From the sequence record MT322327.1: a stretch of DNA of 64,000 bases. The stretch is one strand, 5' to 3'. The position numbers were made by a program, and so were the translations under genes. How positions within the stretch are numbered: the first letter of the stretch is position 1; each line of letters begins with the position of its first letter. Origin of the DNA: Escherichia phage SSBS18_WS_10_728. Below the pieces are notes generated by a model. The model was not told the origin of the DNA, did no database searches, and saw only the letters and a list, made by a program, of their open reading frames with translations. Shown one piece after another: positions 304 to 16,423 of the stretch.

Positions 304-307
304 AAAT

Positions 308-400
308 TGGAGGAAGATACCAGACTTGAACTGGTACACCGATTTCTCAGCTACTGGCAGTTTAGCAAACTGCTCCCTTACCTTTTAGGGTTAATCTTCC
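308..400 (-). tRNA. tRNA-Ser (anticodon GCU), class II with long variable arm
   Basis: Acceptor GGAAGAT/ATCTTCC, anticodon stem GCAGT/ACTGC with loop UUGCUAA, T-arm ACCAGTTCAAGTCTGGT, CCA encoded; 93 nt. Confidence 0.55.
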
Positions 401-401
401 A

Positions 402-1136
402 TTATTTCTGTAATGCGTTCTTCATTTCTGGTGTTGCAATAGTGTCAATCACACCAGTTTTACAAGCATCATCAAACCAGTCTGGTAAGATACCTGCTAA
501 GAACCCATTGATATTCGTTTTAAGGTACTCTGCAATAAGGGCAGCTTCTTCTTCAATCATCTGAACAACTTCATCTGCATAAGCTGTAATCTTTGAAATA
601 CCTTCATTAATCTTATTAACAGCTTGGTTAGCTAAATCAGAAATAGTATCAAGACCTTTATCAATAGCATCCTGTAAGTCACTTAATACATCATTAACAC
701 CATCTAGTGTACTGTTAATCATATCCATAGCTTTTTGACCATACTCTGTAGCAACACCCATAATACCACTAAACGGTGTACAGCCAACTTGTTCCCCTGC
801 TGCACCCATAACATTAGAATAGCCTTTTGCTACCTGCATACGTGATGAAAACTCATCAATGGACTTTTGACCATAATCCGTCAGTGTTTTAGTGGTTGAT
901 GTAGTGCTTGTCAGACTCGTTGTAAAGCTGTTAAGCAGAACTGTTGTAAGTCCAGCAGCAACAAGTTTATCCTTTATTGTAGGGTCTGTTACAGAGCTAA
1001 TAGAGCTTACAAGTGATGTAGAGGCAGCTACGGTTCCACCTAGAACTGCTGCACCAGTAATAAGGGGATTAGAAAACCCTCTACCGGTTTTTAAGAGATT
1101 AAAAATCTCCTTACCTTGTTCTGTCATCTCTTTCAT
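402..1136 (-). CDS. hypothetical protein (Thr/Ser-rich)
   Basis: ORF 402..1199; start moved to internal ATG at 1136 (AAAGG RBS) because the 5' end overlaps tRNA-Phe. Confidence 0.45.
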   Translation of the reverse strand: MKEMTEQGKEIFNLLKTGRGFSNPLITGAAVLGGTVAASTSLVSSISSVTDPTIKDKLVAAGLTTVLLNSFTTSLTSTTSTTKTLTDYGQKSIDEFSSRMQVAKGYSNVMGAAGEQVGCTPFSGIMGVATEYGQKAMDMINSTLDGVNDVLSDLQDAIDKGLDTISDLANQAVNKINEGISKITAYADEVVQMIEEEAALIAEYLKTNINGFLAGILPDWFDDACKTGVIDTIATPEMKNALQK

Positions 1137-1152
1137 TAAGCACCTTTGAAAT

Positions 1153-1228
1153 TGGTAGTCCAGTGGGATTTGAACCCTCTTCTCATGTTTTTCAGACACG
1201 CGCTTTAACCATATAAGCTACTTGGACT
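1153..1228 (-). tRNA. tRNA-Phe (anticodon GAA)
   Basis: Acceptor stem 6/7 bp, T-arm GGGTTCAAATCCC, anticodon loop CUGAAAA, CCA encoded. Confidence 0.6.
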
Positions 1229-1234
1229 ATAAAT

Positions 1235-1310
1235 TGGGGTGACCTACGGGATTTGAACCCGTATAGACCATGTTCACAGCATGGGTCATTACCGTTTATG
1301 ATAAGGCCAC
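1235..1310 (-). tRNA. tRNA-His (anticodon GUG)
   Basis: Acceptor GTGGCCT/AGGTCAC, T-arm ACGGGTTCAAATCCCGT, anticodon loop CUGUGAA. Confidence 0.55.
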
Positions 1311-1341
1311 ATTTAAGGACTCTCGTAAGAACCCTTAGAAG

Positions 1342-1417
1342 TGGCAGCGGCATAAGGATTTGAACCTTAATAAGACAGCTTCAGAGACTGCTGCATTGCC
1401 AGTTATGCTATACCGCT
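1342..1417 (-). tRNA. tRNA-Gln (anticodon CUG), tentative
   Basis: D-stem GCAT/ATGC, anticodon stem GCAGT/GCTGT with loop CUCUGAA, T-arm TAAGGTTCAAATCCTTA, CCA encoded. Confidence 0.5.
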
Positions 1418-1422
1418 AAATT

Positions 1423-1501
1423 TGGTACTCCATATCGGATTCGAACCGATACATAACACAGATTTTAAGTCTGGCCTCTCTGCCAATTGGAGTAATGGAG
1501 C
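1423..1501 (-). tRNA. tRNA with Leu-type anticodon UAA but short variable arm (isotype uncertain)
   Basis: T-arm ATCGGTTCGAATCCGAT, CCA encoded, D-loop AATTGGCAGAG shared with tRNA at 2246..2323; anticodon loop CUUAAAA. Confidence 0.4.
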
Positions 1502-1503
1502 AT

Positions 1504-1578
1504 TGGCGGGGGATGTTGGAATTGAACCAACTTCTTCGATTTCAAAGACCGAGGTTTTAACCTTGTAAACTAATCCCC
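1504..1578 (-). tRNA. tRNA-Gln (anticodon UUG), tentative
   Basis: T-arm GTTGGTTCAATTCCAAC, anticodon stem TCGGT/ATCGA with loop CUUUGAA, CCA encoded. Confidence 0.5.
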
Positions 1579-1587
1579 TTTAAATCT

Positions 1588-2145
1588 TTACTTTCTCAGT
1601 GGATGAATAAAGAATGCCAACATAACTCTTTCCCTTGAGAATGCTCTTTCTTCTGGGACAACACTTTTAAGTTTCCAACCAACATAAATTCTCCAGTAGA
1701 ATTGTTTACCAAAGACTTTAATTGATGGGATAAAAGCGAATAACCCCCAAGCATTGCTGTTCCACATTAGGAGATAACCTGTCTGATTATCTTCAGGGTC
1801 AGAGCTTACGTTGATATTACCTTTCCACTTAGTAACATCTTTTACATCTCTTCCTAACACATGGTAAGAGAAGTTATAAGCTTTGTTTCTCCAGAGCCAT
1901 CCAACTCTCTGCAAATAGACACCCAGCTTACCAATCTTTCTAATCTTAGCCCATCTTTTAATGTGACCTTCATCACCATCAATAGGGTTGTCATATGTCT
2001 CCATCCATCTGAATCCAAAAGGTAGATGTCCTTTCTTCTCACTATAGAATGGAACTACAAAAGGTGCTAAGATAACTGCTAAGATTGCTGCCAATGGGTC
2101 TAGCAAAGCTAGGAAAATCCATGAAGCATACTTCAAATATCTCAT
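1588..2145 (-). CDS. hypothetical membrane-anchored protein inside the tRNA cluster
   Basis: 185-aa ORF, hydrophobic N-terminus, AAGAGG RBS 8 nt upstream of ATG. Confidence 0.55.
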   Translation of the reverse strand: MRYLKYASWIFLALLDPLAAILAVILAPFVVPFYSEKKGHLPFGFRWMETYDNPIDGDEGHIKRWAKIRKIGKLGVYLQRVGWLWRNKAYNFSYHVLGRDVKDVTKWKGNINVSSDPEDNQTGYLLMWNSNAWGLFAFIPSIKVFGKQFYWRIYVGWKLKSVVPEERAFSRERVMLAFFIHPLRK

Positions 2146-2164
2146 TTAAATAGCCTCTTTAAAT

Positions 2165-2240
2165 TGGCGCAGGATAAGGGATTCGAACCCCTATTAACAG
2201 CTTCGTAGACTGTTGCTCTATCCATTTGAACTAATCCTGC
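2165..2240 (-). tRNA. tRNA-Arg (anticodon ACG)
   Basis: Acceptor GCAGGAT/ATCCTGC perfect, anticodon stem ACAGT/GCTGT with loop CUACGAA, T-arm GGGGTTCGAATCCCTT. Confidence 0.55.
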
Positions 2241-2245
2241 AAAAT

Positions 2246-2323
2246 TGGTGTTCCAAGACGGATTCGAACCGTCACTAGTACAAGGTTTGAGCTTGCATCC
2301 TCTGCCAATTGGGATACTGGAAC
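2246..2323 (-). tRNA. tRNA with Leu-type anticodon CAA but short variable arm (isotype uncertain)
   Basis: T-arm GACGGTTCGAATCCGTC, anticodon stem GCAAG/CTTGT with loop CUCAAAC, CCA encoded. Confidence 0.4.
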
Positions 2324-2324
2324 A

Positions 2325-2399
2325 TGGTACTCACTAAAGGACTTGAACCTTTTTCTTCATCTTGTAATGGTGATGTTTTACCATATAAACTAAGCGAGT
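2325..2399 (-). tRNA. tRNA-Val (anticodon UAC), tentative
   Basis: D-stem GTTT/AAAC, T-arm AAAGGTTCAAGTCCTTT, anticodon loop AUUACAA. Confidence 0.4.
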
Positions 2400-2494
2400 G
2401 TGGAAGAGGTCTGAAGTTGTGCCGCTAACTCAACTCCGTGGAATTTGTTACGGTCTTCAGTTGACACCAGCGGTCTTTCACTTGACCTCTGAAT

Positions 2495-2571
2495 TGGTGC
2501 TGCTCACAGGACTCGAACCTGCATTTCCATCCTTACAAGGGATGTGTAATAGCCAATTATACGAAAGCAGC
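2495..2571 (-). tRNA. tRNA-Thr (anticodon UGU)
   Basis: Anticodon stem CATCC/GGATG perfect with loop CUUGUAA, T-arm GCAGGTTCGAGTCCTGT, CCA encoded. Confidence 0.6.
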
Positions 2572-2577
2572 ATTGTT

Positions 2578-2652
2578 TGGAGCATCCAGAGGGAATCGAA
2601 CCCTCAACCTCAGTTTGGAAGACTGTAATTTTCCCGTTTAAACTATGGATGC
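2578..2652 (-). tRNA. tRNA-Gly (anticodon UCC)
   Basis: Acceptor GCATCCA/TGGATGC perfect, T-arm GAGGGTTCGATTCCCTC, anticodon loop CUUCCAA. Confidence 0.55.
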
Positions 2653-2658
2653 ACTAAT

Positions 2659-2734
2659 TGGTGGAGTCACTGAGAATTGAACTCAGTTCCCAAGTTTGCA
2701 AAACTCGAATTTTAACCATATAAACTATGACCCC
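2659..2734 (-). tRNA. tRNA-Ala (anticodon UGC)
   Basis: Acceptor GGGGTCA with G3:U70 pair, T-arm CTGAGTTCAATTCTCAG, anticodon loop UUUGCAA. Confidence 0.6.
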
Positions 2735-2740
2735 AATGTT

Positions 2741-2816
2741 TGGTACAGGTGGAGGGAATTGAACCCATCGTCTTACTGATTAAGAGTCAGCCGCATAACC
2801 ATTTTGCTACACCTGC
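2741..2816 (-). tRNA. tRNA-Lys (anticodon CUU), tentative
   Basis: Acceptor GCAGGTG/CACCTGT, anticodon stem GCTGA/TCAGT with loop CUCUUAA, weak T-stem; paralog of tRNA at 4057..4132. Confidence 0.45.
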
Positions 2817-2823
2817 ATTAATT

Positions 2824-2901
2824 TGGTAGGAGACAAGGGATTCGAACCCTCAAACACCAACTTCTAAGGATGGTAGGTTTACCAATTACCGTCAATCTCC
2901 C
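2824..2901 (-). tRNA. tRNA with Leu-type anticodon UAG but short variable arm (isotype uncertain)
   Basis: T-arm GAGGGTTCGAATCCCTT, CCA encoded, anticodon loop CUUAGAA with 4/5-bp stem. Confidence 0.4.
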
Positions 2902-3156
2902 ATTAAATCTTTTTAGAGAACTTCTAAGAACCTAAGCAACAAGGTTCCACAACAAGCTGTAATAACCTTAGAAGCCCTCTAAAAAGACCTAAATAGGTCT
3001 TTACATAGTCTTGTTTAATCCGGTGACTAGAACCTTTGGAGAGCTTGATATTATCTCTTCTCCGTGACACCTACTAGGTGCTTTACTGTGCGTGTACGAC
3101 AATACACGAGGGATAAACCGAAAATGCGAGCAAGCATGACGGTGTAAATCTTATTA

Positions 3157-3246
3157 GGCGGTAAGTAAAGGAGTCGAACCCTCACCGTATCTCTACAGTG
3201 GCAACAGTTTTCAAGACTGTTTGGCTGCCATTAGCCGCTACCTACC
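3157..3246 (-). tRNA. tRNA-Ser (anticodon UGA), class II
   Basis: Acceptor GGTAGGT/ACTTACC, anticodon stem ACAGT/ACTGT perfect with loop CUUGAAA, long variable arm, T-loop TTCGACT; 3' CC encoded. Confidence 0.6.
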
Positions 3247-3259
3247 CCTAATAAGACTT

Positions 3260-3342
3260 TGGCATGGGACGGAGGAGTTGAACCCCTTTGAAACGGTTTT
3301 GGAGGCCGTTGCTCATGCCTTAGAGTCTTAACATCGTCCCAC
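3260..3342 (-). tRNA. tRNA, possibly Trp (anticodon CCA); atypical length
   Basis: Acceptor GTGGGAC/GTCCCAT, T-arm AGGGGTTCAACTCCTCC, CCA encoded, hairpin with loop CUCCAAA; D region ~7 nt too long in my fold. Confidence 0.35.
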
Positions 3343-3484
3343 ACTATAATTCGAAGCTTACCGTATTTTCGCAACACTGTAAAGCCCCTTCTCAGATTAT
3401 TTACATGTTCTGGAAAACATGAGATACAGACCACCTCCTTACACGGAGACCCGATAAGGTCGTCTAAGCAATCTGCTAACTATT

Positions 3485-3561
3485 TGGCACACCCTACAGG
3501 ATTCGAACCTGTAACTCAATGATTAGAAGTCATTTGCTCTGTCCAGTTGAACTAAGGGTGC
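3485..3561 (-). tRNA. tRNA-Arg (anticodon UCU)
   Basis: Anticodon stem AATGA/TCATT perfect with loop CUUCUAA, T-arm ACAGGTTCGAATCCTGT, CCA encoded. Confidence 0.6.
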
Positions 3562-3854
3562 ATTAATCTTTAAAGACTCTCTTAGAAAGCCCTTAAAGAT
3601 GCCCACTTTATTAATCATACCGTGGGCTAGTACGCCAAATTCTTTGATGAGGGATTGGAAGACCTCACTGGTGTTTAGCCTATCAAGCTACTGCCAGAAA
3701 AACATTGTCGTTTGCATTTATTTTAAATTTGCAAAATAGACGCTACGCAACGAAAACTATTCAGAATATGTACAACAAATTTCCCCACATTGTGTTACGT
3801 CTAACGCTCATGTATTGGTGTTTGAATTATACATATTATGAATCATTTTTAGTT

Positions 3855-3883
3855 ACTATAAAGCGGTCACATCTCAATGTCAA
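3855..3883 (-). promoter_or_regulatory. sigma70-like promoter reading leftward into tRNA genes
   Basis: Minus strand: -35 TTGACA, 17-bp spacer, -10 TATAGT. Confidence 0.5.
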
Positions 3884-3898
3884 CAACTTTATTGAAAT

Positions 3899-3974
3899 TG
3901 GTACTGGTAGGTGGAATCGAACCACCGATATTCCCTTATCAGGGGAGTGTTATAACCTTCTTAACTATACCAGC
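3899..3974 (-). tRNA. tRNA-Ile (anticodon GAU)
   Basis: Acceptor GCTGGTA/TACCAGT, T-arm GGTGGTTCGATTCCACC, anticodon loop CUGAUAA. Confidence 0.55.
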
Positions 3975-3975
3975 T

Positions 3976-4052
3976 TGGAGGTTCAGATGGGAATCGAACC
4001 CACATTCATAGGGCTTATGAAACCCCTGCATTACCTTATCTGCGACTGAACC
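3976..4052 (-). tRNA. tRNA-Met (anticodon CAU; elongator or Ile2-type)
   Basis: Acceptor GGTTCAG/CTGAACC perfect, anticodon stem GGGGT/GCCCT with loop UUCAUAA, T-arm GTGGGTTCGATTCCCAT. Confidence 0.55.
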
Positions 4053-4056
4053 ATAT

Positions 4057-4132
4057 TGGTAGAAGTGGAGGGATTCGAACCCATCGCCTGTCAGATTAAA
4101 AGTCTGCCGCATCACCATTCTGCTACACTTCC
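4057..4132 (-). tRNA. tRNA-Lys (anticodon UUU)
   Basis: Acceptor GGAAGTG/CACTTCT, anticodon stem GCAGA/TCTGA with loop CUUUUAA, CCA encoded. Confidence 0.5.
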
Positions 4133-4333
4133 ATTAAATTATCTTTGTAGATAAGCTACCCAGACTTGCTTAAGGTCTGTAGCGATGTGCCTTGTTGGGT
4201 TTAAATCTAGAATTTACCCTTTCACCCTTTGTGGTCGCATACTCACAGGTAAGCTTAATAGCTCACCTACAAAGATAATTACCAGACCGTTGTTTATCAT
4301 CTTAAGTGCTACCATTACACCAACTCGACATCT

Positions 4334-4357
4334 GCCGAGTGAAGGAATCGAACCTTC
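4334..4357 (-). other. orphan tRNA T-arm-like element (possible tRNA remnant)
   Basis: Perfect T-arm GAAGGTTCGATTCCTTC on minus strand but no matching 5' acceptor strand or CCA nearby. Confidence 0.3.
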
Positions 4358-4393
4358 GCCTTTTCTTTACCGGAGAAATAGATTGTTTAAGTT

Positions 4394-4413
4394 TTGCTGT
4401 AAACGGTCTTCTG
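4394..4413. repeat. tRNA-cluster repeat copy A (TTGCTG-N5-GGTCTTCTG)
   Basis: One of four 20-nt copies; CCAGACC partner at 4281 and 4424. Confidence 0.6.
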
Positions 4414-4483
4414 TAAATTTGTTGAGCCAGACCAAGTTTTAAATTTTTTCAAAATTAAATTGGCTTGAAAATATCATACGTGC

Positions 4484-4503
4484 TTGCTGAATTTGGTCTT
4501 CTG
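4484..4503. repeat. tRNA-cluster repeat copy B
   Basis: TTGCTGAATTTGGTCTTCTG; CCAGACC partner at 4424. Confidence 0.6.
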
Positions 4504-4591
4504 CTCCTTTAAAGAACACTCGTAAGAACCCTTTAAGGGAGGGGCTAAAATAGCCCTCTCAAAACATCATCTTGAAATACTTATTATAATT

Positions 4592-4669
4592 TGGCGGTTA
4601 CGAAGGGATTTGAACCCTCATCATCTCCCGTGACAGGGGAGTATTTTAACCAGATTAAACTACATAACC
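4592..4669 (-). tRNA. tRNA-Asp (anticodon GUC)
   Basis: Anticodon stem CTCCC/GGGAG perfect with loop CUGUCAC, T-arm GAGGGTTCAAATCCCTT, CCA encoded. Confidence 0.65.
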
Positions 4670-4675
4670 TTTATT

Positions 4676-4763
4676 TGGTGTGCCGTGTAGGAGTCGAACC
4701 TACCGAGTCTCAATGACAAGGGATTTACAGTCCCCACCGCTACCATCTACGGGATAACGACAC
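4676..4763 (-). tRNA. tRNA-Tyr (anticodon GUA), class II
   Basis: Acceptor GTGTCGT/ACGGCAC, anticodon loop CUGUAAA, long variable arm, T-arm GTAGGTTCGACTCCTAC, CCA encoded; 88 nt. Confidence 0.6.
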
Positions 4764-4772
4764 ATTTAAATT

Positions 4773-4849
4773 TGGCGGTTAGTCAGGGATTCGAACCCTG
4801 TGCCATTCGCTTAACAGGCGACCGCACATACCTTATGTGCTTCCTAACC
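4773..4849 (-). tRNA. tRNA-Asn (anticodon GUU)
   Basis: D-stem GCAC/GTGC, anticodon loop CUGUUAA, T-arm CAGGGTTCGAATCCCTG, CCA encoded. Confidence 0.6.
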
Positions 4850-4900
4850 TTAATACATTGCCAGACCGTGTTTTTTCTTTTATCCGCAAAAAGTATTTTG

Positions 4901-4920
4901 TTGCTGAATACGGTCTTCTG
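4901..4920. repeat. tRNA-cluster repeat copy C
   Basis: TTGCTGAATACGGTCTTCTG, 6 nt from 3' end of tRNA-Met; CCAGACC partner at 4861. Confidence 0.6.
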
Positions 4921-4926
4921 CAAAAT

Positions 4927-5003
4927 TGGAGGCGGGTGCAGGAGTCGAACCTGCCGATACCATGCTAATGAGACATGTGAGACGCCCTTTCTCTATACCC
5001 GCA
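4927..5003 (-). tRNA. tRNA-Met (anticodon CAU), possible initiator
   Basis: Anticodon stem CATGT/GCATG with loop CUCAUUA, T-arm GCAGGTTCGACTCCTGC, unpaired 1:72 position, CCA encoded. Confidence 0.5.
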
Positions 5004-5067
5004 ATTCTTAATGACCAGACCAAATCTCTTCTTTGTCCGATTTACCTTCAGATGAATAAGATTAAGT

Positions 5068-5087
5068 TTGCTGTAATTGGTCTTCTG
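5068..5087. repeat. tRNA-cluster repeat copy D
   Basis: TTGCTGTAATTGGTCTTCTG, 7 nt from 3' end of tRNA-Glu; CCAGACC partner at 5015. Confidence 0.6.
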
Positions 5088-5094
5088 TCAAAAC

Positions 5095-5172
5095 TGGCGT
5101 TCCAGAAGGGATTTGAACCCTCAAATATCCACTTTGAAAGAGTGGTGACTTTACCATTTTGTCCACTGGAAC
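5095..5172 (-). tRNA. tRNA-Glu (anticodon UUC)
   Basis: Anticodon stem CCACT/AGTGG perfect with loop CUUUCAA, T-arm GAGGGTTCAAATCCCTT, CCA encoded. Confidence 0.6.
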
Positions 5173-5179
5173 ATTAATT

Positions 5180-5256
5180 TGGTCTCTGTTGGAGGACTTG
5201 AACCTCCGGCCTTACCGCCCCAAACGGAACGCTCTACCAAGCTGAGCTAAACAGAG
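5180..5256 (-). tRNA. tRNA-Pro (anticodon UGG)
   Basis: Acceptor CTCTGTT/AACAGAG perfect, anticodon loop UUUGGGG, T-arm GGAGGTTCAAGTCCTCC, CCA encoded. Confidence 0.6.
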
Positions 5257-5421: not shown

Positions 5422-6837
5422 TTACCAGATGTAACGGTCAATCATTACTGCTTTGAGCATTACGCTGGTTGGGTCAAACTTCTCACCACCAAGCAGAGCT
5501 TTTAAAGTGGCTGGAGAGAACCCTGATACCATTGCTACACCGTTATCCTTAACAGATACTTCGCAAGTACCATTACGGTTTGCTAAGTACCAGAATACCA
5601 GTTGTGGCATTTCGTATCCAGCTTTTTTGTACTTACTACGAATTGCTTCAAAGTTTGTACGACCATTTGCACCATCAACCTGATTAAACTCCATATCAGA
5701 GAAGATGATAAGCTTACTTGGCATATCTTTCTGAGTCAAGTTGTTTCTCTTACCTGTCTCAAGAATACGGTCAAAAGCTGCTTGTAAATTAGTTGAACCA
5801 TACTCAACATGACGCATCACCTGACGATGACGGTTTCGTAAATCACCACTCAGTTCGATGAAGTGAGGGTTTGTTGAGTAAACCATTAACTCATTCTTAA
5901 AGCAACCAGTATTGCGTTCTGCTACATACAAGGCAAGTGATACACCAATATCAAGTGCAGTGATTGAACCAAGATTCACCCAAGACATTGAGCTTGAAAC
6001 ATCAGTCATACACAAGATGTTCTCACCTTCTGCCATCCAGTTTGGTAGTGCTTTCCACTGCTCATTGGCAACATCTGCATTACCATGTTTGATAGACTTA
6101 ATCACATCGTATGGGTAAACAGCACCAGCGTTAATCTTAGCCTCACCCTTTGAGAGTGACTCGATGTAAGCTTTGTAACGTTCTCCATCTTTACGGTTAA
6201 AGAGTTTTTGGTAACGTGCAGCAGCAAGAGAAGGAATCTTACTGTAGTCGATTTTACCAAACTCATTAGCAGAGATTTTTTGCTCAACTGTATCAGAAAG
6301 TGCAGACAACAGTGTGCGGTACTCTTTCTCACTCAAGTTAGCAAACTTGCAGAAACGTTTTACAAACTGTTTGTGGCGTGGTTTTACTCGTGGTAACCAC
6401 TTGGCTGCTAAACCTGCTGTTTCAGGGTCTAGTAATGCTGCTTCTAAGTGCTTAAAGGCATCTGTCTCAAAACGAGTACCTACGAAGATTTTGAAGTCAT
6501 CAAAACGACCAAGCTCTGCAATCTTATCCATAATGCGAAGAACCTGTGTAGGCTCTAAAACTTTATCTTCAATTGCTTGAAGTAAAACAGTTCTGAAGGC
6601 TTTACGCTCACCCATACCTTCTCGTACATCTCGCATGTGAAGCAAAATACGAACTGCAACATCAACATCCTCACGCAAAGCTTTGTAGAACAAATCTGGT
6701 AAGATTTCTACATTACTACGGCTGGAACCAGCAGCTTTGTAAAAGTCCACAAGAGCAGACATTGATGAAGTATGGTTTACAGCACCATTTTCAGTTCGAC
6801 CTGCATGAAGGTGCGCATGTTTAAATAATTCGCTCAT
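5422..6837 (-). CDS. vWA-domain protein (MIDAS motif DxSxS), possibly DUF2828-like
   Basis: 471-aa ORF; motif MTDVSSSMS; GAGAG RBS upstream. Confidence 0.55.
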   Translation of the reverse strand: MSELFKHAHLHAGRTENGAVNHTSSMSALVDFYKAAGSSRSNVEILPDLFYKALREDVDVAVRILLHMRDVREGMGERKAFRTVLLQAIEDKVLEPTQVLRIMDKIAELGRFDDFKIFVGTRFETDAFKHLEAALLDPETAGLAAKWLPRVKPRHKQFVKRFCKFANLSEKEYRTLLSALSDTVEQKISANEFGKIDYSKIPSLAAARYQKLFNRKDGERYKAYIESLSKGEAKINAGAVYPYDVIKSIKHGNADVANEQWKALPNWMAEGENILCMTDVSSSMSWVNLGSITALDIGVSLALYVAERNTGCFKNELMVYSTNPHFIELSGDLRNRHRQVMRHVEYGSTNLQAAFDRILETGKRNNLTQKDMPSKLIIFSDMEFNQVDGANGRTNFEAIRSKYKKAGYEMPQLVFWYLANRNGTCEVSVKDNGVAMVSGFSPATLKALLGGEKFDPTSVMLKAVMIDRYIW

Positions 6838-6918: not shown

Positions 6919-7290
6919 TTATTTTTTGAGAGTCGCTACAGCAGAGAACGTTGGTTTGTTATCTGTCTGAGGTTGACCAGCACTATCAGGGGTCTTCTTA
7001 GTGTCTGCTGCAAGTGCTTTCATCTCACCTGCTGAGTGAGTAAAGATGGTCTTACCGACCTCAATCATACTCTTGATGTTTACGTCATCTGTGTTTAACC
7101 CGAACTCTGCAAGCTTAGCAGCATCCCTTGTAACAATCGCCTCAAACAGCTTTGCAGCAAACTCAGCAGAATTATCAATGGTCAGTTGAGCTTTTACAAG
7201 TGAACTTTTGTTACGAGAGCCTTTTGGTCTTCCAGATGGGTTTCCAGATTGGCCTTTTTTAAACTGGCCTTTGTTTGTTCTGTTTTTCAT
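6919..7290 (-). CDS. hypothetical protein with basic Gly/Pro-rich N-terminus
   Basis: 123-aa ORF, AAGAGG RBS. Confidence 0.5.
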   Translation of the reverse strand: MKNRTNKGQFKKGQSGNPSGRPKGSRNKSSLVKAQLTIDNSAEFAAKLFEAIVTRDAAKLAEFGLNTDDVNIKSMIEVGKTIFTHSAGEMKALAADTKKTPDSAGQPQTDNKPTFSAVATLKK

Positions 7291-7539
7291 TGGTATGCCT
7301 CTTATAAGACCTCTTAAAAGGCTTTTAAGATAAAAGATAGATATCCAGAAAGATATCTGTTTAAATAGCCTTTTTAGAGGAACCTTTTAAGTTATCTTCT
7401 AAGTATTTATAAGCCTACACCTTGTCAAGTCCTTTGTCAACAACTTTTTTAACTTGCAATAGTTCTTGACTTGTTGTATGGATTACTGTACCATCTTACT
7501 TAAAGCTGTAGGTCTGCCTTGTTCTACAAAGGAGACTTA

Positions 7540-7701
7540 ATGAGAAAATCAAATAACCCGAAGAAAGGTAAAAATACCAATCACTGTAAGGAATCAAAAA
7601 GGGTAGAGTTACTCTACTATTCATCCTCTGAAATTGGTCTGTACCTGTTCTTTCAAAATTACAGAAGACAAGAGGATTATCTATGTGTAGTTCCCAATTA
7701 G
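7540..7701 (+). CDS. hypothetical small protein
   Basis: AAGGAGA RBS before ATG at 7540; downstream of TTGTCAA-type promoter motifs at 7420-7450. Confidence 0.35.
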   Translation: MRKSNNPKKGKNTNHCKESKRVELLYYSSSEIGLYLFFQNYRRQEDYLCVVPN

Positions 7702-7916
7702 AAATCGCAGATATTATAGATTTATATCAAACTGCAAAGAGTCATGGCTATATAACCTCAATTGGAAAGAATAGTCACTATGATGCTTTGACTGGAATGT
7801 ATTTCAGGGCAATGGCTCAATCTAGTGAACAACACTTAGTGGTTTCTTCCAGTGAGTTTACTTCGTTTCTCTATTGCAGCAAAATCATAAATCGCAGGAG
7901 AACTGAAAAATGTTAA
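7683..7916 (+). CDS. hypothetical protein
   Basis: 77-aa ORF with AAGAGGA RBS. Confidence 0.45.
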   Translation: MCSSQLEIADIIDLYQTAKSHGYITSIGKNSHYDALTGMYFRAMAQSSEQHLVVSSSEFTSFLYCSKIINRRRTEKC

Positions 7917-8500
7917 CAGTAAGTTTTAATTACAATAGTGATGGCTCTGTATCAATTAATTCACCGTATGCAAATGACCTATTGAAAGAGTTAGTTAACC
8001 AGTGTGAAAGAGGTCTTCACTATGTTCCAAATTCTTTTAAGCAGAAGACTATCGCTAACAATCTGATGCGTGTGACGGTTACAACATCAAATCCAAACTA
8101 TGATATTGATAGTGAAAGCCCTTATTCTTTAGTGGCTCTTGGAGAGTGTAGTCAATTTAAGCTTGTCTGCCACGACTCAGAAACATTTCTTAAGGTGTTT
8201 TCCAACCTTATTCACAATAATAAGTACGGGTATGTTGATGGTAGTGTAAACTTCTATCCAGCAAACTATACATGCCTATTGATTGATAATATGAGAAGTA
8301 GCAAGCAAGAGCCTACAGAAATCTCATTTGATGTGAACTCTAGTCCAGACGCAGAAACAAGTAATAACTTTGATATGAGTTACGCGCTATCACTTAGTAA
8401 GAAATCCGAGTTCATTGATTATGTCAATGGATTTGGTTTTAAGTTTGACGAGAACATGAATCTCAAAAAACTTAAGAACCTACTTAAGACCAAAGCTTAA
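7910..8500 (+). CDS. hypothetical protein
   Basis: 196-aa ORF with AGGAG RBS. Confidence 0.55.
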   Translation: MLTVSFNYNSDGSVSINSPYANDLLKELVNQCERGLHYVPNSFKQKTIANNLMRVTVTTSNPNYDIDSESPYSLVALGECSQFKLVCHDSETFLKVFSNLIHNNKYGYVDGSVNFYPANYTCLLIDNMRSSKQEPTEISFDVNSSPDAETSNNFDMSYALSLSKKSEFIDYVNGFGFKFDENMNLKKLKNLLKTKA

Positions 8501-8547
8501 GTATAAACAGGGGCTAATGCCCCTTTATCTATTTATAAGGATATTTA

Positions 8548-8919
8548 ATGAAGGCTAAGAGTGCAAAAGACTTTTATTGCTTCCTACAATCCTATATCAA
8601 TTCCGTGGAGAAAGGTGATAGATATAATCTTAAAGATGTTATTACATCACCTTTAACATGGAGACTTAGCAAATGGCCTGAAGAAGATATCACACCCACT
8701 AGTAAACAACCTACCTACATCCCAGATATTAATCTCCCAGATTCAGATAAGTTATTGTACCCAATGTTCCACATTGTTGGGCTTGGTACATTTCTTATGG
8801 ATATCCAGTATGTAATTGGTAAGGGTTATAAGGTTGAAGGTATTGTTGTTGGTGATGTATCTCCACAACATAAAGGCTATTTTAGATTAAACGCACGTTT
8901 AGAGGCTAAAAAGAAATGA
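8548..8919 (+). CDS. hypothetical protein; paralog of N-terminal domain of next gene
   Basis: 123-aa ORF; shares FxDLQYxI and W(P/R)Ex(D/A)I blocks with 8916..10049 product. Confidence 0.55.
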   Translation: MKAKSAKDFYCFLQSYINSVEKGDRYNLKDVITSPLTWRLSKWPEEDITPTSKQPTYIPDINLPDSDKLLYPMFHIVGLGTFLMDIQYVIGKGYKVEGIVVGDVSPQHKGYFRLNARLEAKKK

Positions 8920-10049
8920 TTAAAGCAAAGACTTACCCAGACTTCAAAGAATTTGTAAAAGGTTTCGTTGCAAATGTAAAGGCTGGTAAGAGATATGATT
9001 TTAGAACATATCAAGAAGCTATTTTACCACTCACCTATAGCTCATATTGGCCTGAAGCTGATATTGCAGAGGTTGAGAAGTTTGACTACAAACCAGACTA
9101 CAAAGTTCCTTTCAGTGATGAACTTCTTTACAGTGTTGGTGCACAGATGAGAACTGCTGATTTCTTCATGGATTTACAGTATGCAATCATCAATGGTAAA
9201 GATGTTGACACAGTATATTGTGAATGGTTGGCAAGAGTTAAGCCGTTCTCAATGTTGAATGCTAAGTTGAAGGATGCCATTAAGCCACCAGTAATTACTC
9301 AGCAGCCAACAAACCAAACAGTCAATGAGGGTGGAGCACTTACCCTAAGTGTTCTCGCAACCAATGCCACTGGGTATCAATGGAAGAAGGATGGTGAGGA
9401 TATCTCAAGTGCCACTTCTGCAACTTACACAAAACAGTCGGTAGCTCCTTCTGATGCTGGCTCATACACTTGCGTTGTGTCTGGAGAGGGTGGAACAAGT
9501 GTCACCTCAGATGCAGCAACAGTTACTGTTAACGCACTACCTGTTATTACCAAGCAACCTTCTAGTCAGACTATCAATGAAGGTGGGAACATCAACTTAG
9601 CAGTGACTGCAACAGGTGCAACTGGTTACCAATGGAAGAAAGATGGTGCTAACATCCCTTCAGCTACGAAGGCCAACTACAGCAAATCTGGTGCGCTTCC
9701 AGCAGATGCAGGTTCTTACACATGTGTTGTGACTGGTGCTGGAGGTTCTGTTACTTCTAGCCCTGCAACAATTACGGTAAAGGCTTTGCCAGTTATCACT
9801 CAACAGCCAGCAAATCAAGAAATCACTGAAGGAGAGACCTTAACGCTGAATGTTGTGGCTACTGGTGCAACAGGTTATCAGTGGAAGAAAGGTGAGGAAG
9901 TCATCCCAGACGCAACTGCTGCAACTTACACCAAAGAAGGTGCAACCGCTGCTGATGCAGGAAGCTACACCTGTGTAGTGACTGGCGCAGGTGGCTCTGT
10001 AACATCTAATGCAGCAACAGTTACAGTTAACCCAACAGGGGAGGCATAA
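8916..10049 (+). CDS. protein with three tandem Ig-like domains
   Basis: 377 aa; three ~90-aa repeats each with GYQWKKDG and GSYTCVV motifs; ATGA start overlap. Confidence 0.6.
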   Translation: MIKAKTYPDFKEFVKGFVANVKAGKRYDFRTYQEAILPLTYSSYWPEADIAEVEKFDYKPDYKVPFSDELLYSVGAQMRTADFFMDLQYAIINGKDVDTVYCEWLARVKPFSMLNAKLKDAIKPPVITQQPTNQTVNEGGALTLSVLATNATGYQWKKDGEDISSATSATYTKQSVAPSDAGSYTCVVSGEGGTSVTSDAATVTVNALPVITKQPSSQTINEGGNINLAVTATGATGYQWKKDGANIPSATKANYSKSGALPADAGSYTCVVTGAGGSVTSSPATITVKALPVITQQPANQEITEGETLTLNVVATGATGYQWKKGEEVIPDATAATYTKEGATAADAGSYTCVVTGAGGSVTSNAATVTVNPTGEA

Positions 10050-10513
10050 TGCAACTCTCAAGAAAAGGTTTAGAGGCTATTAAGTTCTTTGAAGGTCTGA
10101 AGTTAGAGGCTTACAAAGATTCTGCCGGAATCCCAACAATCGGGTATGGTACAATCCGTATTGACGGGAAACCTGTTAAGATGGGTATGAAAATCACGGC
10201 TGAACAAGCTGAACAGTATCTTCTCGCAGATGTTGAAAAGTTCGTTGCAGCAGTGAATAAAGCTATCAAGGTTCCAACTTCTCAGAATGAGTTTGACGCA
10301 CTTGTAAGTGAAACATACAACATCGGTATCACAGCTATGCAGGATTCTACATTTATCAAGCGCCACAATGCTGGTAATAAGGTAGGTTGTGCAGAAGCTA
10401 TGCAGTGGTGGAACAAGGTCACAGTCAAGGGTAAGAAGGTCACTTCAAACGGACTGAAAAACAGACGTAGAATGGAAGCTGACATTTATCTTGACAGTGT
10501 ATACCCAAAGTAA
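10049..10513 (+). CDS. lysozyme, GH24 (T4 lysozyme / P22 gp19-like)
   Basis: Motif FEGLKLEAYKDSAGIPTIGYGT matches T4 lysozyme catalytic region; GGAGG RBS. Confidence 0.75.
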   Translation: MQLSRKGLEAIKFFEGLKLEAYKDSAGIPTIGYGTIRIDGKPVKMGMKITAEQAEQYLLADVEKFVAAVNKAIKVPTSQNEFDALVSETYNIGITAMQDSTFIKRHNAGNKVGCAEAMQWWNKVTVKGKKVTSNGLKNRRRMEADIYLDSVYPK

Positions 10514-10523
10514 TATCTTCATA

Positions 10524-10550
10524 GGCTCCTTCGGGAGCCTTTTTTATTTT
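10524..10550 (+). terminator. rho-independent terminator
   Basis: Hairpin GGCTCC-TTCG-GGAGCC followed by TTTTTTATTTT. Confidence 0.6.
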
Positions 10551-10564
10551 CTAAGGAGAACACT

Positions 10565-10963
10565 ATGAAGCTTTGGGCTAGTGACTTTGGGACTTTTAAG
10601 TACACTCGTAACGGTTCACTTGTACGCATCATTGGAAACAATGTAGTTTCAAGAGGTGACAAGGTGTATACACGGTTTACTGTAGAGCTTGTTGAACTGT
10701 CACCTATTGAGTCTGTGAACAATGGCATGTTCAAGTTTGAGACTTACAATGTCAATGAGCATGGACAATTCAATCCTCTTGGTGAAAGTGGACTTGATAT
10801 TATTTCAGAGCACCCATTGACAAAAGAGCAACTTGCAGGTTACTATAAAACTGTTCTGGAAAGGCAGTTAGCAACACATGAACAAGAAGCTAACTACCAT
10901 TTACAGCATTGCGAAACTTTAAGAGCAAAAATCGAACAAGCAGAGAGAGGTTTTTATGAATAA
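10565..10963 (+). CDS. hypothetical protein
   Basis: 132-aa ORF, AAGGAGA RBS. Confidence 0.5.
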   Translation: MKLWASDFGTFKYTRNGSLVRIIGNNVVSRGDKVYTRFTVELVELSPIESVNNGMFKFETYNVNEHGQFNPLGESGLDIISEHPLTKEQLAGYYKTVLERQLATHEQEANYHLQHCETLRAKIEQAERGFYE

Positions 10964-11351
10964 TAACAGTCATATCCACGTTAAAGTTGATGTCAGTCGT
11001 TACAGCGAAAATGAGGAACTAGACCTGCAAGATGCTCTTCTATTTGAGAAGAATGGCAATCTCCATTTGCATTTTGAAGGTACAAATACGTACCTCCACA
11101 GATGCCGAGATGATGCAGACGGTTGTCCTGTTTTTGCTTGGTATAATTTAGAGTTTCCTCTTTATGCCATCCACTATCCAGATGGTGGAGAAGACTGGAC
11201 TACCCAATCAATCTTTGATGAACTTAACGGTATTCCTGTTGAGCAAGAAGAGCAAGAGCCTGTTGAACTCACCTTCACCTTCGTCAAAGAAGAAACGGTT
11301 GGTGATTTGTCAGTAACTGAAGCTATTCAGGTAACACAGGTTATTCGTTAA
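10956..11351 (+). CDS. hypothetical protein
   Basis: 131-aa ORF, overlapping start. Confidence 0.5.
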   Translation: MNNNSHIHVKVDVSRYSENEELDLQDALLFEKNGNLHLHFEGTNTYLHRCRDDADGCPVFAWYNLEFPLYAIHYPDGGEDWTTQSIFDELNGIPVEQEEQEPVELTFTFVKEETVGDLSVTEAIQVTQVIR

Positions 11352-14744: not shown

Positions 14745-14752
14745 AATATTTT

Positions 14753-14787
14753 AAGAGCCTCCTTAATTGGGGGCTTTTTAATTTTTA
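14753..14787 (+). terminator. rho-independent terminator ending the plus-strand block
   Basis: Hairpin AGCCTCC...GGGGGCT followed by TTTTTAATTTTT. Confidence 0.55.
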
Positions 14788-14789
14788 TA

Positions 14790-16360
14790 AAATTTTATCG
14801 GTTGTCCCAACCTCTGGGTCACCATCATATGTGAATAAAATATCTATCCTTCTTAACAGCCTTCTTAATCTTACTCTCTATATAGTTATATAGTACTATA
14901 TAGTATCTTAGTATCTATCTAGTGGTCTTAATAGCACCTCTGTATAGCCCTTCTAAACACTCTTCTAACAAGCCTTCTTAACAGCCTATACAATCACCTT
15001 AACCATTCCTCTACACCCTCTTAGAAGCTCCTATACACCTCTTAATCTCTAGGTTAGCTATGATACTCTCTATAGGTGTTCACTAGGAAATACTAAGCCT
15101 CTATATAGACTGTTTTAACAAACTTAACAGGAATATCTTTACAGACCTTATCTCACAAGGTCTAACACGGTACTAACAAGGTATCTTATAAGCCTGTTTA
15201 TGCCTGTATTTTTAAAAGACTGTCTAGGTAATTATTCAGAATTTTAAAATTTTTATAAAATAGGACTATCAAGTCATTTTTTAGGGTCTTTGAAGGAACT
15301 GAAAAATATCTGTAGAGTTGATTCGGTAGAGCCTACCTCATGATGTATATCTGCTTGGTAGCCCTTAACATCCTTGTAACATCCCCTTTGCAGAATTTTA
15401 AAATATCATTAACAATCTCTTAACAGTTGCTACATCTTCTTAACATCTCTTCAGAGGTCTTAACAGATTCTTAACAGAACTAACAAGAGCTTAACAGTTT
15501 TTTAACAAGTGCTGAATAGTCTTTACAGAGGTTTAACAGATGACTAACAAGTCCTAAGAAGTTAATTTTAAAGGGTTATTTTGTAAAGATAATTAACAAG
15601 TTCCTAACAAGTGTTTAACCTTTTTAACAAGCTATTAACATGGTCACTATCTCTTGGTCTATAGTTCCCTCTCCCTCTTAGTGACCCTTTAAACATACCT
15701 CTTAAAAGCTCTCCATAGCTCTTTGTAAGCTCTTTTAAGTCTCTTCCTAGTAGTTACACCCCCAACTATACAGAAAGCTATTTATAGGGCTTTACAGGAG
15801 CTTTTAAGGCTATGTCAAAGACTCTTACAAGGCTTTTACGTGGTTTTAACAGAGATTTAACAAGGGGCTAACAAGTTGCTAACAAGTACCTTAAAAGCAT
15901 AACTATGTAGGGTTTGTTAAGAAATTGTTAAGAAAATGTTAAGGGGGCTAGCATTTACGTAACTTTATAGCCTCTTTTACGTAACTTTGAAGTAACTTTA
16001 TAGCCTCTTTTACGTAACTTTATAGCCCCTATAACATACTTTTTAGTGACTATCAAGGGGGTTGTTTAGTTATTCACAAGATACTAACGAGATGATAAAG
16101 CTTACACCCTTATAAGATTCTTTTAAGGCTCTGGTAAGCTTTATAAAGGGATTTTAAGGGTGAAGTAATGCAATCCCTTAAGTTAGGTTAAAAAGGCTGT
16201 TATAGGGCTTTATAGAGCGTTTTAGTGGTTGCCCTTCCCTTTCGGGTTATGGGCTTATATTTAAGTTGATTTGATAAAAGGCTATAGAGTAGACTATAGA
16301 GTTATTGCTTTTAAGGTCTAGTAAGATTCTGGAAAGGAAAGGGAAAGGATTTAATAAGAC
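14790..16360. repeat. 1.6-kb noncoding region dense in short direct repeats
   Basis: No ORF of 60 aa or more on either strand; about 20 copies of TTAACAG/TAACAAG, TATATAG runs, ~23-bp direct repeats TACGTAACTTTATAGCCTCTTT at 15955-16030. Confidence 0.7.
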
Positions 16361-16362
16361 GT

Positions 16363-16387
16363 AAAAAAGCCCCATTTAAGGGGCTGT
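16363..16387 (-). terminator. rho-independent terminator ending the minus-strand small-gene array
   Basis: Minus strand: hairpin AGCCCC-TTAAAT-GGGGCT followed by TTTTTT. Confidence 0.55.
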
Positions 16388-16423
16388 AAAGGTATCTGGG
16401 GCTATTTAGCCCCGTTGCGGCGT

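What the first reader, a model, noticed from the sequence alone, without database searches (positions are those of the whole stretch)
8548..10513. Paralogous domain duplicated, once fused to three Ig-like repeats, directly upstream of the lysozyme
The 123-aa protein and the N-terminal ~120 aa of the 377-aa protein are clear paralogs. The larger one adds three tandem Ig-like domains (GYQWKKDG...GSYTCVV) and its stop overlaps the lysozyme start, so it is translationally coupled to it. Ig-like domains mediate surface or carbohydrate binding; coupling to an endolysin is unusual.
Basis: seen in the sequence. Interest (0 to 1): 0.45.

Follow-up and report, generated by a model that had tools for sequence, protein, structure and literature searches.

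The report
Known capsid decoration gene plus short paralog
The Ig-repeat protein is the already-solved capsid decoration protein of Felix O1-like phages, sharing a small operon with the endolysin, and the only open question is the role of its short Ig-less paralog.

Summary
Genes of 123 aa, 377 aa and 154 aa lie at 8548-10513. The first two share an N-terminal domain (36% identity, E=4e-17). The 377-aa protein carries three Ig (I-set) repeats, and its stop overlaps the start of a GH24 lysozyme.

The window is a Felixounavirus. The 377-aa protein is the ortholog of Bas63 Hex-Dec (PDB 9NCF chain S, E=1e-293) and Sf14 gp20 (9C2D chain S). That protein is a Hoc-like monomer whose N-terminal ~120 aa plug into capsid hexamer centres while the Ig repeats project outward. 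Linkage to the lysozyme is inherited gene order in a terminator-bounded operon, not evidence of a shared lysis role.

The 123-aa paralog is still undescribed. It is a free-standing copy of the capsid-binding domain. It is under purifying selection (dN/dS 0.13), and both reported capsid-contact arginines are replaced. It was not reported in virion proteomics or cryo-EM maps, and one worldwide clade has lost it. Its role is unknown; the likeliest are a minor or transient hexamer binder, or a modulator of Hex-Dec.

The parts
8509..8534 (+). Rho-independent terminator (hairpin 8509-8524 plus T-rich tail) closing the upstream gene; upstream boundary of the three-gene unit
   Evidence: 6-bp stem with 5 GC pairs. 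It corresponds to terminator t38 of Felix O1 (PMC3185647 Table 2) and is annotated in wV8. Only 23 nt separate it from the ATG at 8548, so no sigma-70 promoter fits in between.
8548..8919 (+). 123-aa free-standing paralog of the Hex-Dec capsid-binding domain (orthologs: Felix O1 ORF37, Bas63 gene 125, Sf14 gp21, wV8 gene 42); function unknown
   Evidence: E=8e-12 and 1e-11 to PDB chains 9c2d_S and 9ncf_S, residues 3-119; phrog_4463; dN/dS 0.13. R79 replaced by invariant Gly, R107 by Q/H/N/K; the top two PDB fold matches are those same two chains. A Shine-Dalgarno AAGGA lies at 8537-8541.
8916..10049 (+). 377-aa Hex-Dec (Hoc-like hexamer-centre capsid decoration protein); start overlaps the paralog's stop (ATGA)
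   Evidence: E=1.2e-293 to 9ncf_S (Bas63 Hex-Dec) and 1.4e-169 to 9c2d_S (Sf14 gp20). Cryo-EM and MS evidence from the literature.
8916..9281 (+). Capsid-binding domain (CapBD, aa 1-122) of Hex-Dec, carrying the capsid-contact residues Arg79 and Arg107
   Evidence: alignment. R79 and R107 are invariant in 23 distinct CapBD sequences; dN/dS 0.04. Contact residues are taken from PMC11821841.
9288..10046 (+). Three tandem I-set Ig-like repeats (Ig1 9288-9539, Ig2 9540-9788, Ig3 9789-10046), the outward-projecting display module
   Evidence: Across relatives the copy number is 1, 2, 3 or 4 (proteins of 210, 294, 377 and 460-461 aa). The first and last repeat types are retained while internal ones are gained or lost.
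10038..10044 (+). Shine-Dalgarno (GGGGAGG) for the lysozyme, inside the end of the Hex-Dec gene
   Evidence: Read from the sequence; it ends 4 nt before the ATG at 10049.
10049..10513 (+). 154-aa GH24 endolysin (T4-lysozyme family); its start shares one base with the Hex-Dec stop (TAATG)
   Evidence: PF00959, E=3.7e-41; phrog_7 endolysin. Orthologs are Felix O1 ORF35 and Bas63 gene 123. Gene 123 scores as needed in PhageMaP.
10523..10550 (+). Rho-independent terminator (hairpin 10523-10540 plus T-run) closing the three-gene unit
   Evidence: 7-bp stem with 5 GC pairs, followed by TTTTTTATTTT. It corresponds to Felix O1 t35 and is annotated in wV8.

Best explanation
Region 8548-10513 is a compact three-gene unit of a Felix O1-like myophage, bounded by terminators. 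Its middle gene encodes Hex-Dec, the Hoc-like capsid decoration protein of the Ounavirinae. One monomer inserts its N-terminal ~120-aa capsid-binding domain (CapBD) into the acidic centre of each of the 60 pentamer-adjacent hexamers of the T=9 head, anchored by Arg79 and Arg107 to Asp221 of the major capsid protein. The three flexible Ig-like repeats project outward, where they probably mediate weak adhesion to surfaces or mucus or affect particle aggregation, as proposed for T4 Hoc. The last gene is the ordinary soluble GH24 endolysin. It shares the unit because of inherited gene order and similar timing of expression, not because the Ig protein takes part in lysis. The first gene is an old tandem duplicate of the CapBD alone, without a display module. 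Shown or taken from solved structures and proteomics of near-identical orthologs: the identity, location and domain roles of Hex-Dec, the identity of the lysozyme, and that the paralog is conserved, selected and dispensable. Inferred (about 0.35-0.4): the paralog still recognises capsid hexamers, at low copy or transiently, for example on procapsids or on the 20 three-fold hexamers. That would make it an Ig-less accessory to the decoration system. The confidence given (0.88) is for the Hex-Dec, lysozyme and operon reading, not for the paralog sub-claim.
For: The phage is a Felixounavirus: 249 phage records match, the best at 95%. Hex-Dec orthology rests (9ncf_S E=1.2e-293; 9c2d_S E=1.4e-169; CapBD nearly identical, with R79 and R107 present). 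Cryo-EM placed the protein at hexamer centres on facet edges, with the Ig domains disordered; the gene lies more than 10 kb outside the structural module and is mis-annotated as 'tail protein' (PMC12609058). Sf14 gp20 contacts were described and the protein was detected by MS (PMC11821841). Felix O1 gp36 (31.6 kDa) was detected in virions at 44% coverage (PMC3185647). Operon structure: overlapping ATGA and TAATG junctions and flanking terminators that match Felix O1 t38 and t35. The trio is conserved in 27 of 27 IMG/VR loci and in four reference phages. Synteny extends beyond the Ig fusion: in L040-L042 a single CapBD gene with no Ig domain sits directly before the lysozyme. For the paralog: homology; dN/dS 0.13 against 0.04 for the CapBD; and in Felix O1, ORF36 and ORF37 were both maximally expressed at 60 min. 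Hex-Dec is dispensable: PhageMaP knockouts of gene 124 are viable.
Against: No experiment was done on this particular phage; everything about Hex-Dec is transferred from orthologs, though at about 97% identity. For the paralog as a capsid binder, several results count against it. Both contact arginines are replaced in all 23 distinct paralog sequences. It is absent from the 17 virion proteins listed for Felix O1 and from the Sf14 MS table and supplement. Both cryo-EM studies report no density on the other hexamers. The Felix O1 RT-PCR timing is crude (it puts the major capsid gene at 5 min) and places the lysin at 25 min rather than 60 min. No promoter for the unit was identified.
Confidence: 0.88

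Rival explanations
1. One reading: the Ig-repeat protein (and its paralog) works with the endolysin. In this view it is a cell-wall or carbohydrate-binding accessory, translationally coupled so that the two are made together for lysis.
For: The stop and start codons overlap. Adjacency to a PF00959 lysozyme is conserved across the subfamily. Ig-like domains can bind carbohydrates (general knowledge).
Against: Orthologs were located on capsid hexamers by cryo-EM and found in purified virions by MS. Knockouts of Bas63 gene 124 are fit on three hosts while the endolysin gene 123 is needed, so the lysin does not depend on it. The overlap is not conserved: relatives have a 2-9 nt gap. The lysozyme has its own Shine-Dalgarno. 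In L040-L042 the homologue next to the lysozyme has no Ig domain. In L036/L037 no neighbour of the CapBD-Ig gene has a Pfam lysozyme hit on record.
Confidence: 0.03
2. Both proteins are tail proteins, as most database annotations say.
For: phrog_3995 is labelled 'tail protein' and there are Ig-domain hits to 'major tail protein' PHROGs. Most GenBank records say 'tail protein'. The Felix O1 paper called gp36 the 'major tail protein'.
Against: The Bas63 paper states that this annotation is wrong and models the protein on capsid hexamers. The PHROG tail hits cover only the Ig repeats. Sf14 gp20 was also modelled on the capsid.
Confidence: 0.02
3. The 123-aa paralog is non-structural. It would modulate or chaperone the decoration system, for example by transiently capping hexamer centres, binding Hex-Dec, or competing with it to set Ig display density, and it would not stay in the mature virion.
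For: It was not reported in virion MS or in the cryo-EM maps. Its stop overlaps the Hex-Dec start (ATGA), and that overlap is kept in the 27 loci examined. The capsid-contact arginines are lost. It is under purifying selection. PhageMaP scores scatter around zero.
Against: It cannot be an obligatory chaperone. A clade that lost it by a single shared deletion keeps an intact Hex-Dec of 293-294 aa, with a CapBD 97% identical in phage mio (L002). There is no direct evidence for any interaction.
Confidence: 0.3
4. The paralog is a functionless leftover of a duplication that is slowly decaying.
For: It has been lost in about 20 of 252 phage records. It evolves about three times faster than the CapBD. 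No clear knockout phenotype was seen.
Against: dN/dS of 0.13 over dS of about 0.8. The reading frame is intact and the length is almost fixed (122-124 aa) across the 27 IMG/VR loci and the reference genomes examined, spanning Felixounavirus, Mooglevirus and Suspvirus, and in a roughly 50%-identical metagenomic lineage. The Shine-Dalgarno and the ATGA junction are retained.
Confidence: 0.08

Closest known systems
Bas63 (Escherichia phage JohannRWettstein) Hex-Dec, PDB 9NCF chain S; Felix O1 gp36
   Same: An orthologous gene in the same position: paralog, then Hex-Dec, then endolysin. The CapBD is nearly identical, the Ig repeats are the same I-set type, and R79 and R107 are present.
   Different: This phage has three Ig repeats. 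Bas63 has four and Felix O1 two. This is the copy-number variation already described for the genus (1-4 repeats, PMC12609058).
Shigella phage Sf14 gp20 (Mooglevirus), PDB 9C2D chain S
   Same: The same family and architecture with three Ig repeats, E=1.4e-169. It binds as a monomer only to pentamer-proximal hexamers, through R79 and R107 to MCP Asp221, and was detected in virions by MS.
   Different: It belongs to a different genus. There is a 2-9 nt gap rather than an overlap before the lysin, and the Ig repeats are more divergent.
T4 Hoc
   Same: It works alike: a monomer at hexamer centres, a small capsid-binding domain plus a string of Ig-like domains, non-essential, and thought to mediate adhesion or aggregation (PMC12609058, PMC11821841).
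   Different: The domain order is reversed (the capsid-binding domain is C-terminal in Hoc). The capsid-binding domains are topologically distinct and show no sequence similarity; the PHROG Hoc-like hits here cover only residues ~121-290. It is an analogue, not a family member.
T5 pb10 decoration protein (PDB 5LXK, 8ZVI)
   Same: [quoted passage not shown] The Ig domain is detectably homologous (E=3e-12, residues 295-374).
   Different: Only the Ig domain matches; the N-terminal capsid-binding domains show no sequence match. pb10 has a single Ig domain.

Membership tests
Ounavirinae Hex-Dec / Sf14 gp20 hexamer-centre decoration protein (377-aa protein) | An N-terminal ~120-aa capsid-binding domain homologous to the modelled chains | tested here: met
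   full-length alignments to 9ncf_S (E=1.2e-293) and 9c2d_S (E=1.4e-169), with residues 1-122 nearly identical.
Ounavirinae Hex-Dec / Sf14 gp20 hexamer-centre decoration protein (377-aa protein) | The capsid-contact arginines Arg79 and Arg107 | tested here: met
   Both are present in the window protein and invariant in 23 distinct CapBD sequences. The contact residues are taken from PMC11821841.
Ounavirinae Hex-Dec / Sf14 gp20 hexamer-centre decoration protein (377-aa protein) | A C-terminal string of 1-4 Ig-like (I-set) repeats | tested here: met
   Pfam Ig_3, Ig_2 and I-set, three stretches each. Relatives carry 1-4 repeats.
Ounavirinae Hex-Dec / Sf14 gp20 hexamer-centre decoration protein (377-aa protein) | A gene outside the structural module, immediately upstream of the endolysin | tested here: met
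   No large structural genes lie nearby, and the tRNA cluster is at 228-5256.
Ounavirinae Hex-Dec / Sf14 gp20 hexamer-centre decoration protein (377-aa protein) | Physical presence at the centres of the pentamer-adjacent hexamers of the virion | not testable with these tools
   Transferred from the cryo-EM of Bas63 and Sf14 and the MS of Sf14 and Felix O1.
Hex-Dec CapBD family (123-aa paralog) | Sequence and fold homology to the CapBD over its whole length | tested here: met
   BLASTP E=4e-17. phmmer E=8e-12 and 1e-11 to 9c2d_S and 9ncf_S. Family HMM E=2.8e-60. Foldseek's top two hits are the same chains (probability 1.00 and 0.99, TM 0.53), but the model itself is poor, with pLDDT 57.
Hex-Dec CapBD family (123-aa paralog) | The capsid-contact arginines Arg79 and Arg107 | tested here: not met
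   R79 is replaced by Gly in 23 of 23 sequences. R107 is replaced by Q, H, N or K. Caveat: distant single-copy family members also vary at these positions, so this does not exclude capsid binding.
Hex-Dec CapBD family (123-aa paralog) | A C-terminal display module (Ig, Big_2 or similar) | tested here: not met
   The protein ends 4 residues after the domain, and no Pfam family matches. A single-copy relative with no folded display domain does exist (P0061: 153 aa with a K/S-rich tail).
Hex-Dec CapBD family (123-aa paralog) | Presence in the virion | not testable with these tools
   The literature is negative so far. It is not among the Felix O1 MS proteins, not in the Sf14 table or supplement, and no extra hexamer density was reported.
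T4 Hoc family | A Hoc-type C-terminal capsid-binding domain preceded by N-terminal Ig domains | tested here: not met
   The domain order is reversed. The PHROG 'Hoc-like' hits (phrog_2973, 4069, 3945) cover only the Ig region, residues ~121-290.
GH24 phage lysozyme (154-aa protein) | The PF00959 domain with a Glu-Asp-Thr catalytic triad | tested here: met
   PF00959 at E=3.7e-41 over positions 2-125 of 125. E15, D24 and T30 have the spacing of T4L E11, D20 and T26 (sequence; the comparison is from my own knowledge).

The most novel reading that the evidence does not exclude
The 123-aa paralog could be a second, Ig-less hexamer decoration protein specialised for the 20 hexamers on the icosahedral three-fold axes, which Hex-Dec does not bind. 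There the Asp221 ring has a different geometry, which would fit the loss of Arg79 and Arg107. An asymmetric 14-kDa monomer on a three-fold axis would be smeared by icosahedral averaging, and 20 copies of a small protein could be missed by shotgun MS. The capsid would then carry two paralogous plugs, each matched to one class of hexamer.
Probability: 0.1. Interest if true: 0.5.

Novelty: already known. Interest (0 to 1): 0.18.

Why it matters
For the main feature, the value lies in correct annotation. The 377-aa 'tail protein' is a capsid decoration protein with a solved structure, and its position next to the endolysin should not be read as a lysis function. Hex-Dec is a natural, non-essential display scaffold with 60 copies per head and a variable number of Ig repeats, which is of interest for phage engineering. 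The one open point is the paralog. It is conserved and under selection, yet dispensable, and the two structural papers do not discuss it. Finding out whether it binds capsids, and which hexamers, would show how quasi-equivalent hexamers in a T=9 shell are told apart. This is a specialist question of modest reach.

Tried and rejected
1. The AlphaFold2 model of the paralog, built from a 13-sequence alignment, was poor (pLDDT 57, pTM 0.59). It was used only as weak support; the homology claim rests on sequence.
2. The word-indexed protein search found only close paralog orthologs of at least 66% identity. The exhaustive profile search was needed to reach distant members, and it showed a very small family: 12 representatives among 1.84 billion proteins.
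3. No promoter was found for the unit. There is no sigma-70-like site between the terminator and the ATG, and promoter-like sites are no more frequent than in shuffled sequence (7 found against 9.4 expected). The motif TATTTATAAGGA before the first gene occurs only once in the window, which is no more than chance.
4. Rfam found nothing in 7300-11000. The minus-strand ORFs inside the three genes are short (87 aa or less) and lie within conserved plus-strand genes, so they were set aside.
5. I tested whether the gene upstream of the distant homologue P0057 is another tandem paralog. It is not (E=3.6). The family HMM finds only two members in the whole window, and it finds two members only in L034/L035 among the distant loci.
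6. Proteomics literature: the wV8 paper gives no information on genes 41 and 42. The VpaE1 protein list is in a figure that is not held as text. The Sf14 supplement does not mention phage gp21.
7. The capsid protein's Asp221 could not be checked, because the structural module lies outside this window.
8. Reading the loss of Arg79 and Arg107 as proof that the paralog cannot bind capsids was rejected, because distant single-copy family members also lack these arginines.
Full report
**What is there.** The window is a Felix O1-like myophage (Felixounavirus). Region 8400-10600 matches 249 phage records, and the best matches are 95% identical.

The two upstream proteins are paralogs over their first ~120 residues (36% identity, E=4e-17). 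The larger one carries three I-set Ig repeats (Pfam Ig_3 at 1.3e-32, three stretches). The repeats are 66-69% identical to each other in protein and 62-69% in DNA. The third protein is a GH24 lysozyme (PF00959, E=3.7e-41).

The junctions are ATGA (8916-8919) and TAATG (10047-10051). Each gene also has its own Shine-Dalgarno: AAGGA at 8537-8541, GAGG at 8902-8905, and GGGGAGG at 10038-10044. Intrinsic terminators lie immediately before and after the trio, at 8509-8524 and 10523-10540. These are the terminators called t38 and t35 in Felix O1 (PMC3185647).

**What the large protein is.** A sequence search of the PDB gives full-length matches to 9ncf chain S (E=1.2e-293) and 9c2d chain S (E=1.4e-169). 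9ncf chain S is the 'Immunoglobulin-like domain protein' of phage JohannRWettstein (Bas63). 9c2d chain S is the Shigella phage Sf14 'putative tail protein'.

The two cryo-EM papers describe this protein in detail (Hex-Dec in PMC12609058; gp20 in PMC11821841):
- It is a monomer whose N-terminal ~118-122 residues form a capsid-binding domain (CapBD).
- The CapBD plugs the centre of the pentamer-adjacent (facet-edge) hexamers of a T=9 head.
- It is anchored by Arg79 and Arg107 to Asp221 of the capsid protein.
- The Ig repeats extend outward and are disordered in the maps.

The Bas63 paper notes that the gene lies more than 10 kb outside the structural module. It also notes that the gene is wrongly annotated as 'tail protein' in most genomes, and that the genus carries one to four Ig repeats. 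Sf14 gp20 was detected in virions by MS, and so was Felix O1 gp36, at 31.6 kDa and 44% coverage.

Annotation of the reference genomes shows these are the genes orthologous to ours: Bas63 gene 124, Sf14 gp20, Felix O1 ORF36 and wV8 gene 41. In every case the 123-aa gene lies upstream and the lysin downstream. Arg79 and Arg107 are present here and invariant in 23 distinct orthologs.

The large protein is therefore an ordinary capsid decoration protein that has already been solved structurally.

**Ig repeat number.** In 29 related loci the protein is 210, 294, 377 or 460-461 aa, which corresponds to 1, 2, 3 or 4 repeats. The first and last repeat types are always kept, and internal repeats come and go. 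One single-repeat protein (L009) looks like a hybrid: its N-terminal half is Ig1-like and its C-terminal half Ig3-like. A near-identical relative (L004) differs from this window by a clean loss of Ig2. This pattern fits in-frame recombination between repeats, and agrees with what the Bas63 paper reports.

**Why the lysozyme is next door.** The order 'ORF38 homolog, then CapBD gene(s), then lysozyme' is conserved across Felixounavirus, Mooglevirus and Suspvirus, and in more divergent metagenomic ounavirus-like contigs. In L040-L042 the gene before the lysozyme is a single CapBD protein with no Ig domain, only a K/S-rich tail (P0061). The linkage is therefore older than the Ig fusion and independent of it.

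The 1-nt overlap with the lysozyme is replaced by a 2-9 nt gap in Mooglevirus and Suspvirus.

In genome-wide knockouts of Bas63 (PhageMaP preprint, 10.1101/2024.10.10.617714), the endolysin gene 123 scores as needed (-1.19, -1.05, -1.11 on S17-1). Hex-Dec gene 124 is close to neutral or positive (-0.23, -0.11, -0.15 on S17-1; +0.32, +0.40, +0.41 on a second host). Lysis therefore does not depend on the Ig protein.

I read the arrangement as a small operon, probably late, in which inherited gene order places a virion accessory protein and the lysin together. Translational coupling is possible, but it is neither required nor shown.

**The short paralog.** This is the only part the two structural papers do not cover. 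The words 'paralog' and 'duplication' do not occur in the Bas63 paper, and gp21 of Sf14 is never mentioned. Databases and the PhageMaP authors merely label it 'tail protein' by similarity.

What the evidence shows about it:
- **Homology.** It is a full-length homologue of the CapBD (E about 1e-11 to both PDB chains; family HMM). Even a poor AlphaFold model (pLDDT 57) returns those two chains as the only meaningful PDB fold matches.
- **Distribution.** About 230 of 252 ounavirus records carry it next to Hex-Dec. That includes the other genera and a lineage only about 50% identical (P0055 in L034/L035). More distant relatives have a single CapBD gene. The duplication therefore arose within one branch of the subfamily.
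- **Selection.** dN/dS is 0.13 at a dS of about 0.8. The comparison values are 0.04 for the CapBD, 0.12 for Ig1 and 0.08 for the lysozyme. It is a real gene under selection, but more relaxed than its sister domain.
- **Contact residues.** Arg79 is Gly in every paralog, and Arg107 is Q, H, N or K. Distant single-copy family members also vary at these positions, so this alone does not rule out capsid binding.
- **Natural loss.** About 20 records lack the gene. Four of them share one deletion junction that leaves a decaying remnant, while Hex-Dec and the lysin stay intact. These four are mio (Denmark), fBSPA4 (India), P54 (China) and REP6 (USA). That points to a single ancestral loss in a lineage that still thrives, so the paralog is dispensable and is not an obligatory chaperone for Hex-Dec.
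- **Knockouts.** PhageMaP scores for gene 125 scatter around zero with high variance.
- **Virion evidence.** In Felix O1, ORF37 was transcribed late together with ORF36 but was not among the virion proteins identified by MS. Both cryo-EM studies report no density on the hexamers that Hex-Dec leaves empty.

**Best explanation for the paralog.** My best guess, at low confidence, is that it is an Ig-less accessory to the decoration system. It may be a low-copy or transient hexamer binder (about 0.35-0.4), or a soluble modulator or competitor of Hex-Dec (about 0.3). A functionless relic is unlikely given the selection signal (about 0.08).

The most interesting reading that the evidence does not exclude is that it plugs the 20 three-fold hexamers and is hidden by icosahedral averaging. 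I put that at about 0.1.

**Comparison with known systems.** The 377-aa protein is a member of the Ounavirinae Hex-Dec / gp20 family; every sequence-level defining feature that I tested was met. It works like T4 Hoc and T5 pb10 but does not belong to those families. Its domain order is the reverse of Hoc's, and only the Ig part matches Hoc-like PHROGs or pb10.

**Verdict.** The feature is real, but its main component is already known and ordinary for this phage group. The proposed functional link between the Ig domains and the endolysin is not supported. The residual novelty is the uncharacterised short paralog, which is a modest question for specialists.

Noticed in passing
window 14745-16415: A 1.67-kb stretch has no ORF of 50 aa or more on either strand and the lowest GC in the window (0.348). 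It lies where the plus-strand gene block meets the minus-strand block, and the equivalent stretch is also unannotated in Bas63 (L001 14946-16609). It holds 22 same-strand copies of YTAACAR (13 per kb against 0.58 per kb elsewhere), often 11 nt apart. It also holds an 11/22-nt periodic unit, TTTACGTAACTTTATAGCCTC, in four copies at 15954-16043. This is an iteron-like array, so a candidate replication origin or protein-binding site. There was no meaningful Rfam match: one Histone3 stem-loop hit well below its gathering score (19 vs 34 bits, E=0.057).
   Followed up: partly
L002 2306-2498; L043-L045 about 505-698 (window equivalent 8548-8919): Four Felixounavirus isolates from four countries (mio, fBSPA4, P54, REP6) share one identical internal deletion of about 220 bp in the 123-aa gene. 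The start codon is lost and small indels are accumulating. This indicates a single ancestral pseudogenisation inherited by a widespread clade.
   Followed up: yes
window 10956-11351 (+): The 131-aa ORF two genes downstream of the lysozyme is annotated 'D-alanyl-D-alanine carboxypeptidase' in several relatives (for example phage mio gene 119 and Bas63 gene 121 in PhageMaP). It has no Pfam match here, only phrog_4348 of unknown function. The annotation has probably been propagated without support.
   Followed up: no
window 228-5256 (-) and 5422-6837 (-): A cluster of 26 tRNA genes is followed by a 471-aa protein. Relatives annotate that protein as DUF2828, vWFA or 'RNA-binding protein' (Felix O1 ORF42). 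PhageMaP scores the Bas63 ortholog (gene 130) as non-essential, whereas the neighbouring DUF5681 gene (window 6919-7290, Bas63 gene 129) scores strongly negative.
   Followed up: no
L034 11510-12369; L035 8967-9826: Divergent metagenomic ounavirus-like contigs carry a Gad1 (anti-Gabija, PF25705) homolog about 3.8 kb downstream of the lysozyme, in the same plus-strand block. I did not look for an obvious counterpart in the window.
   Followed up: no
GenBank PV390658.1 (L044) and GU169904.1: There are errors in public records. vB_EcoM_P54 is classified as Straboviridae/Tequatrovirus although its sequence is a Felixounavirus. 'Staphylococcus phage SA1' (147 kb) contains a Felix O1-like segment with this trio, which is probably a chimeric or contaminated assembly.
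   Followed up: no
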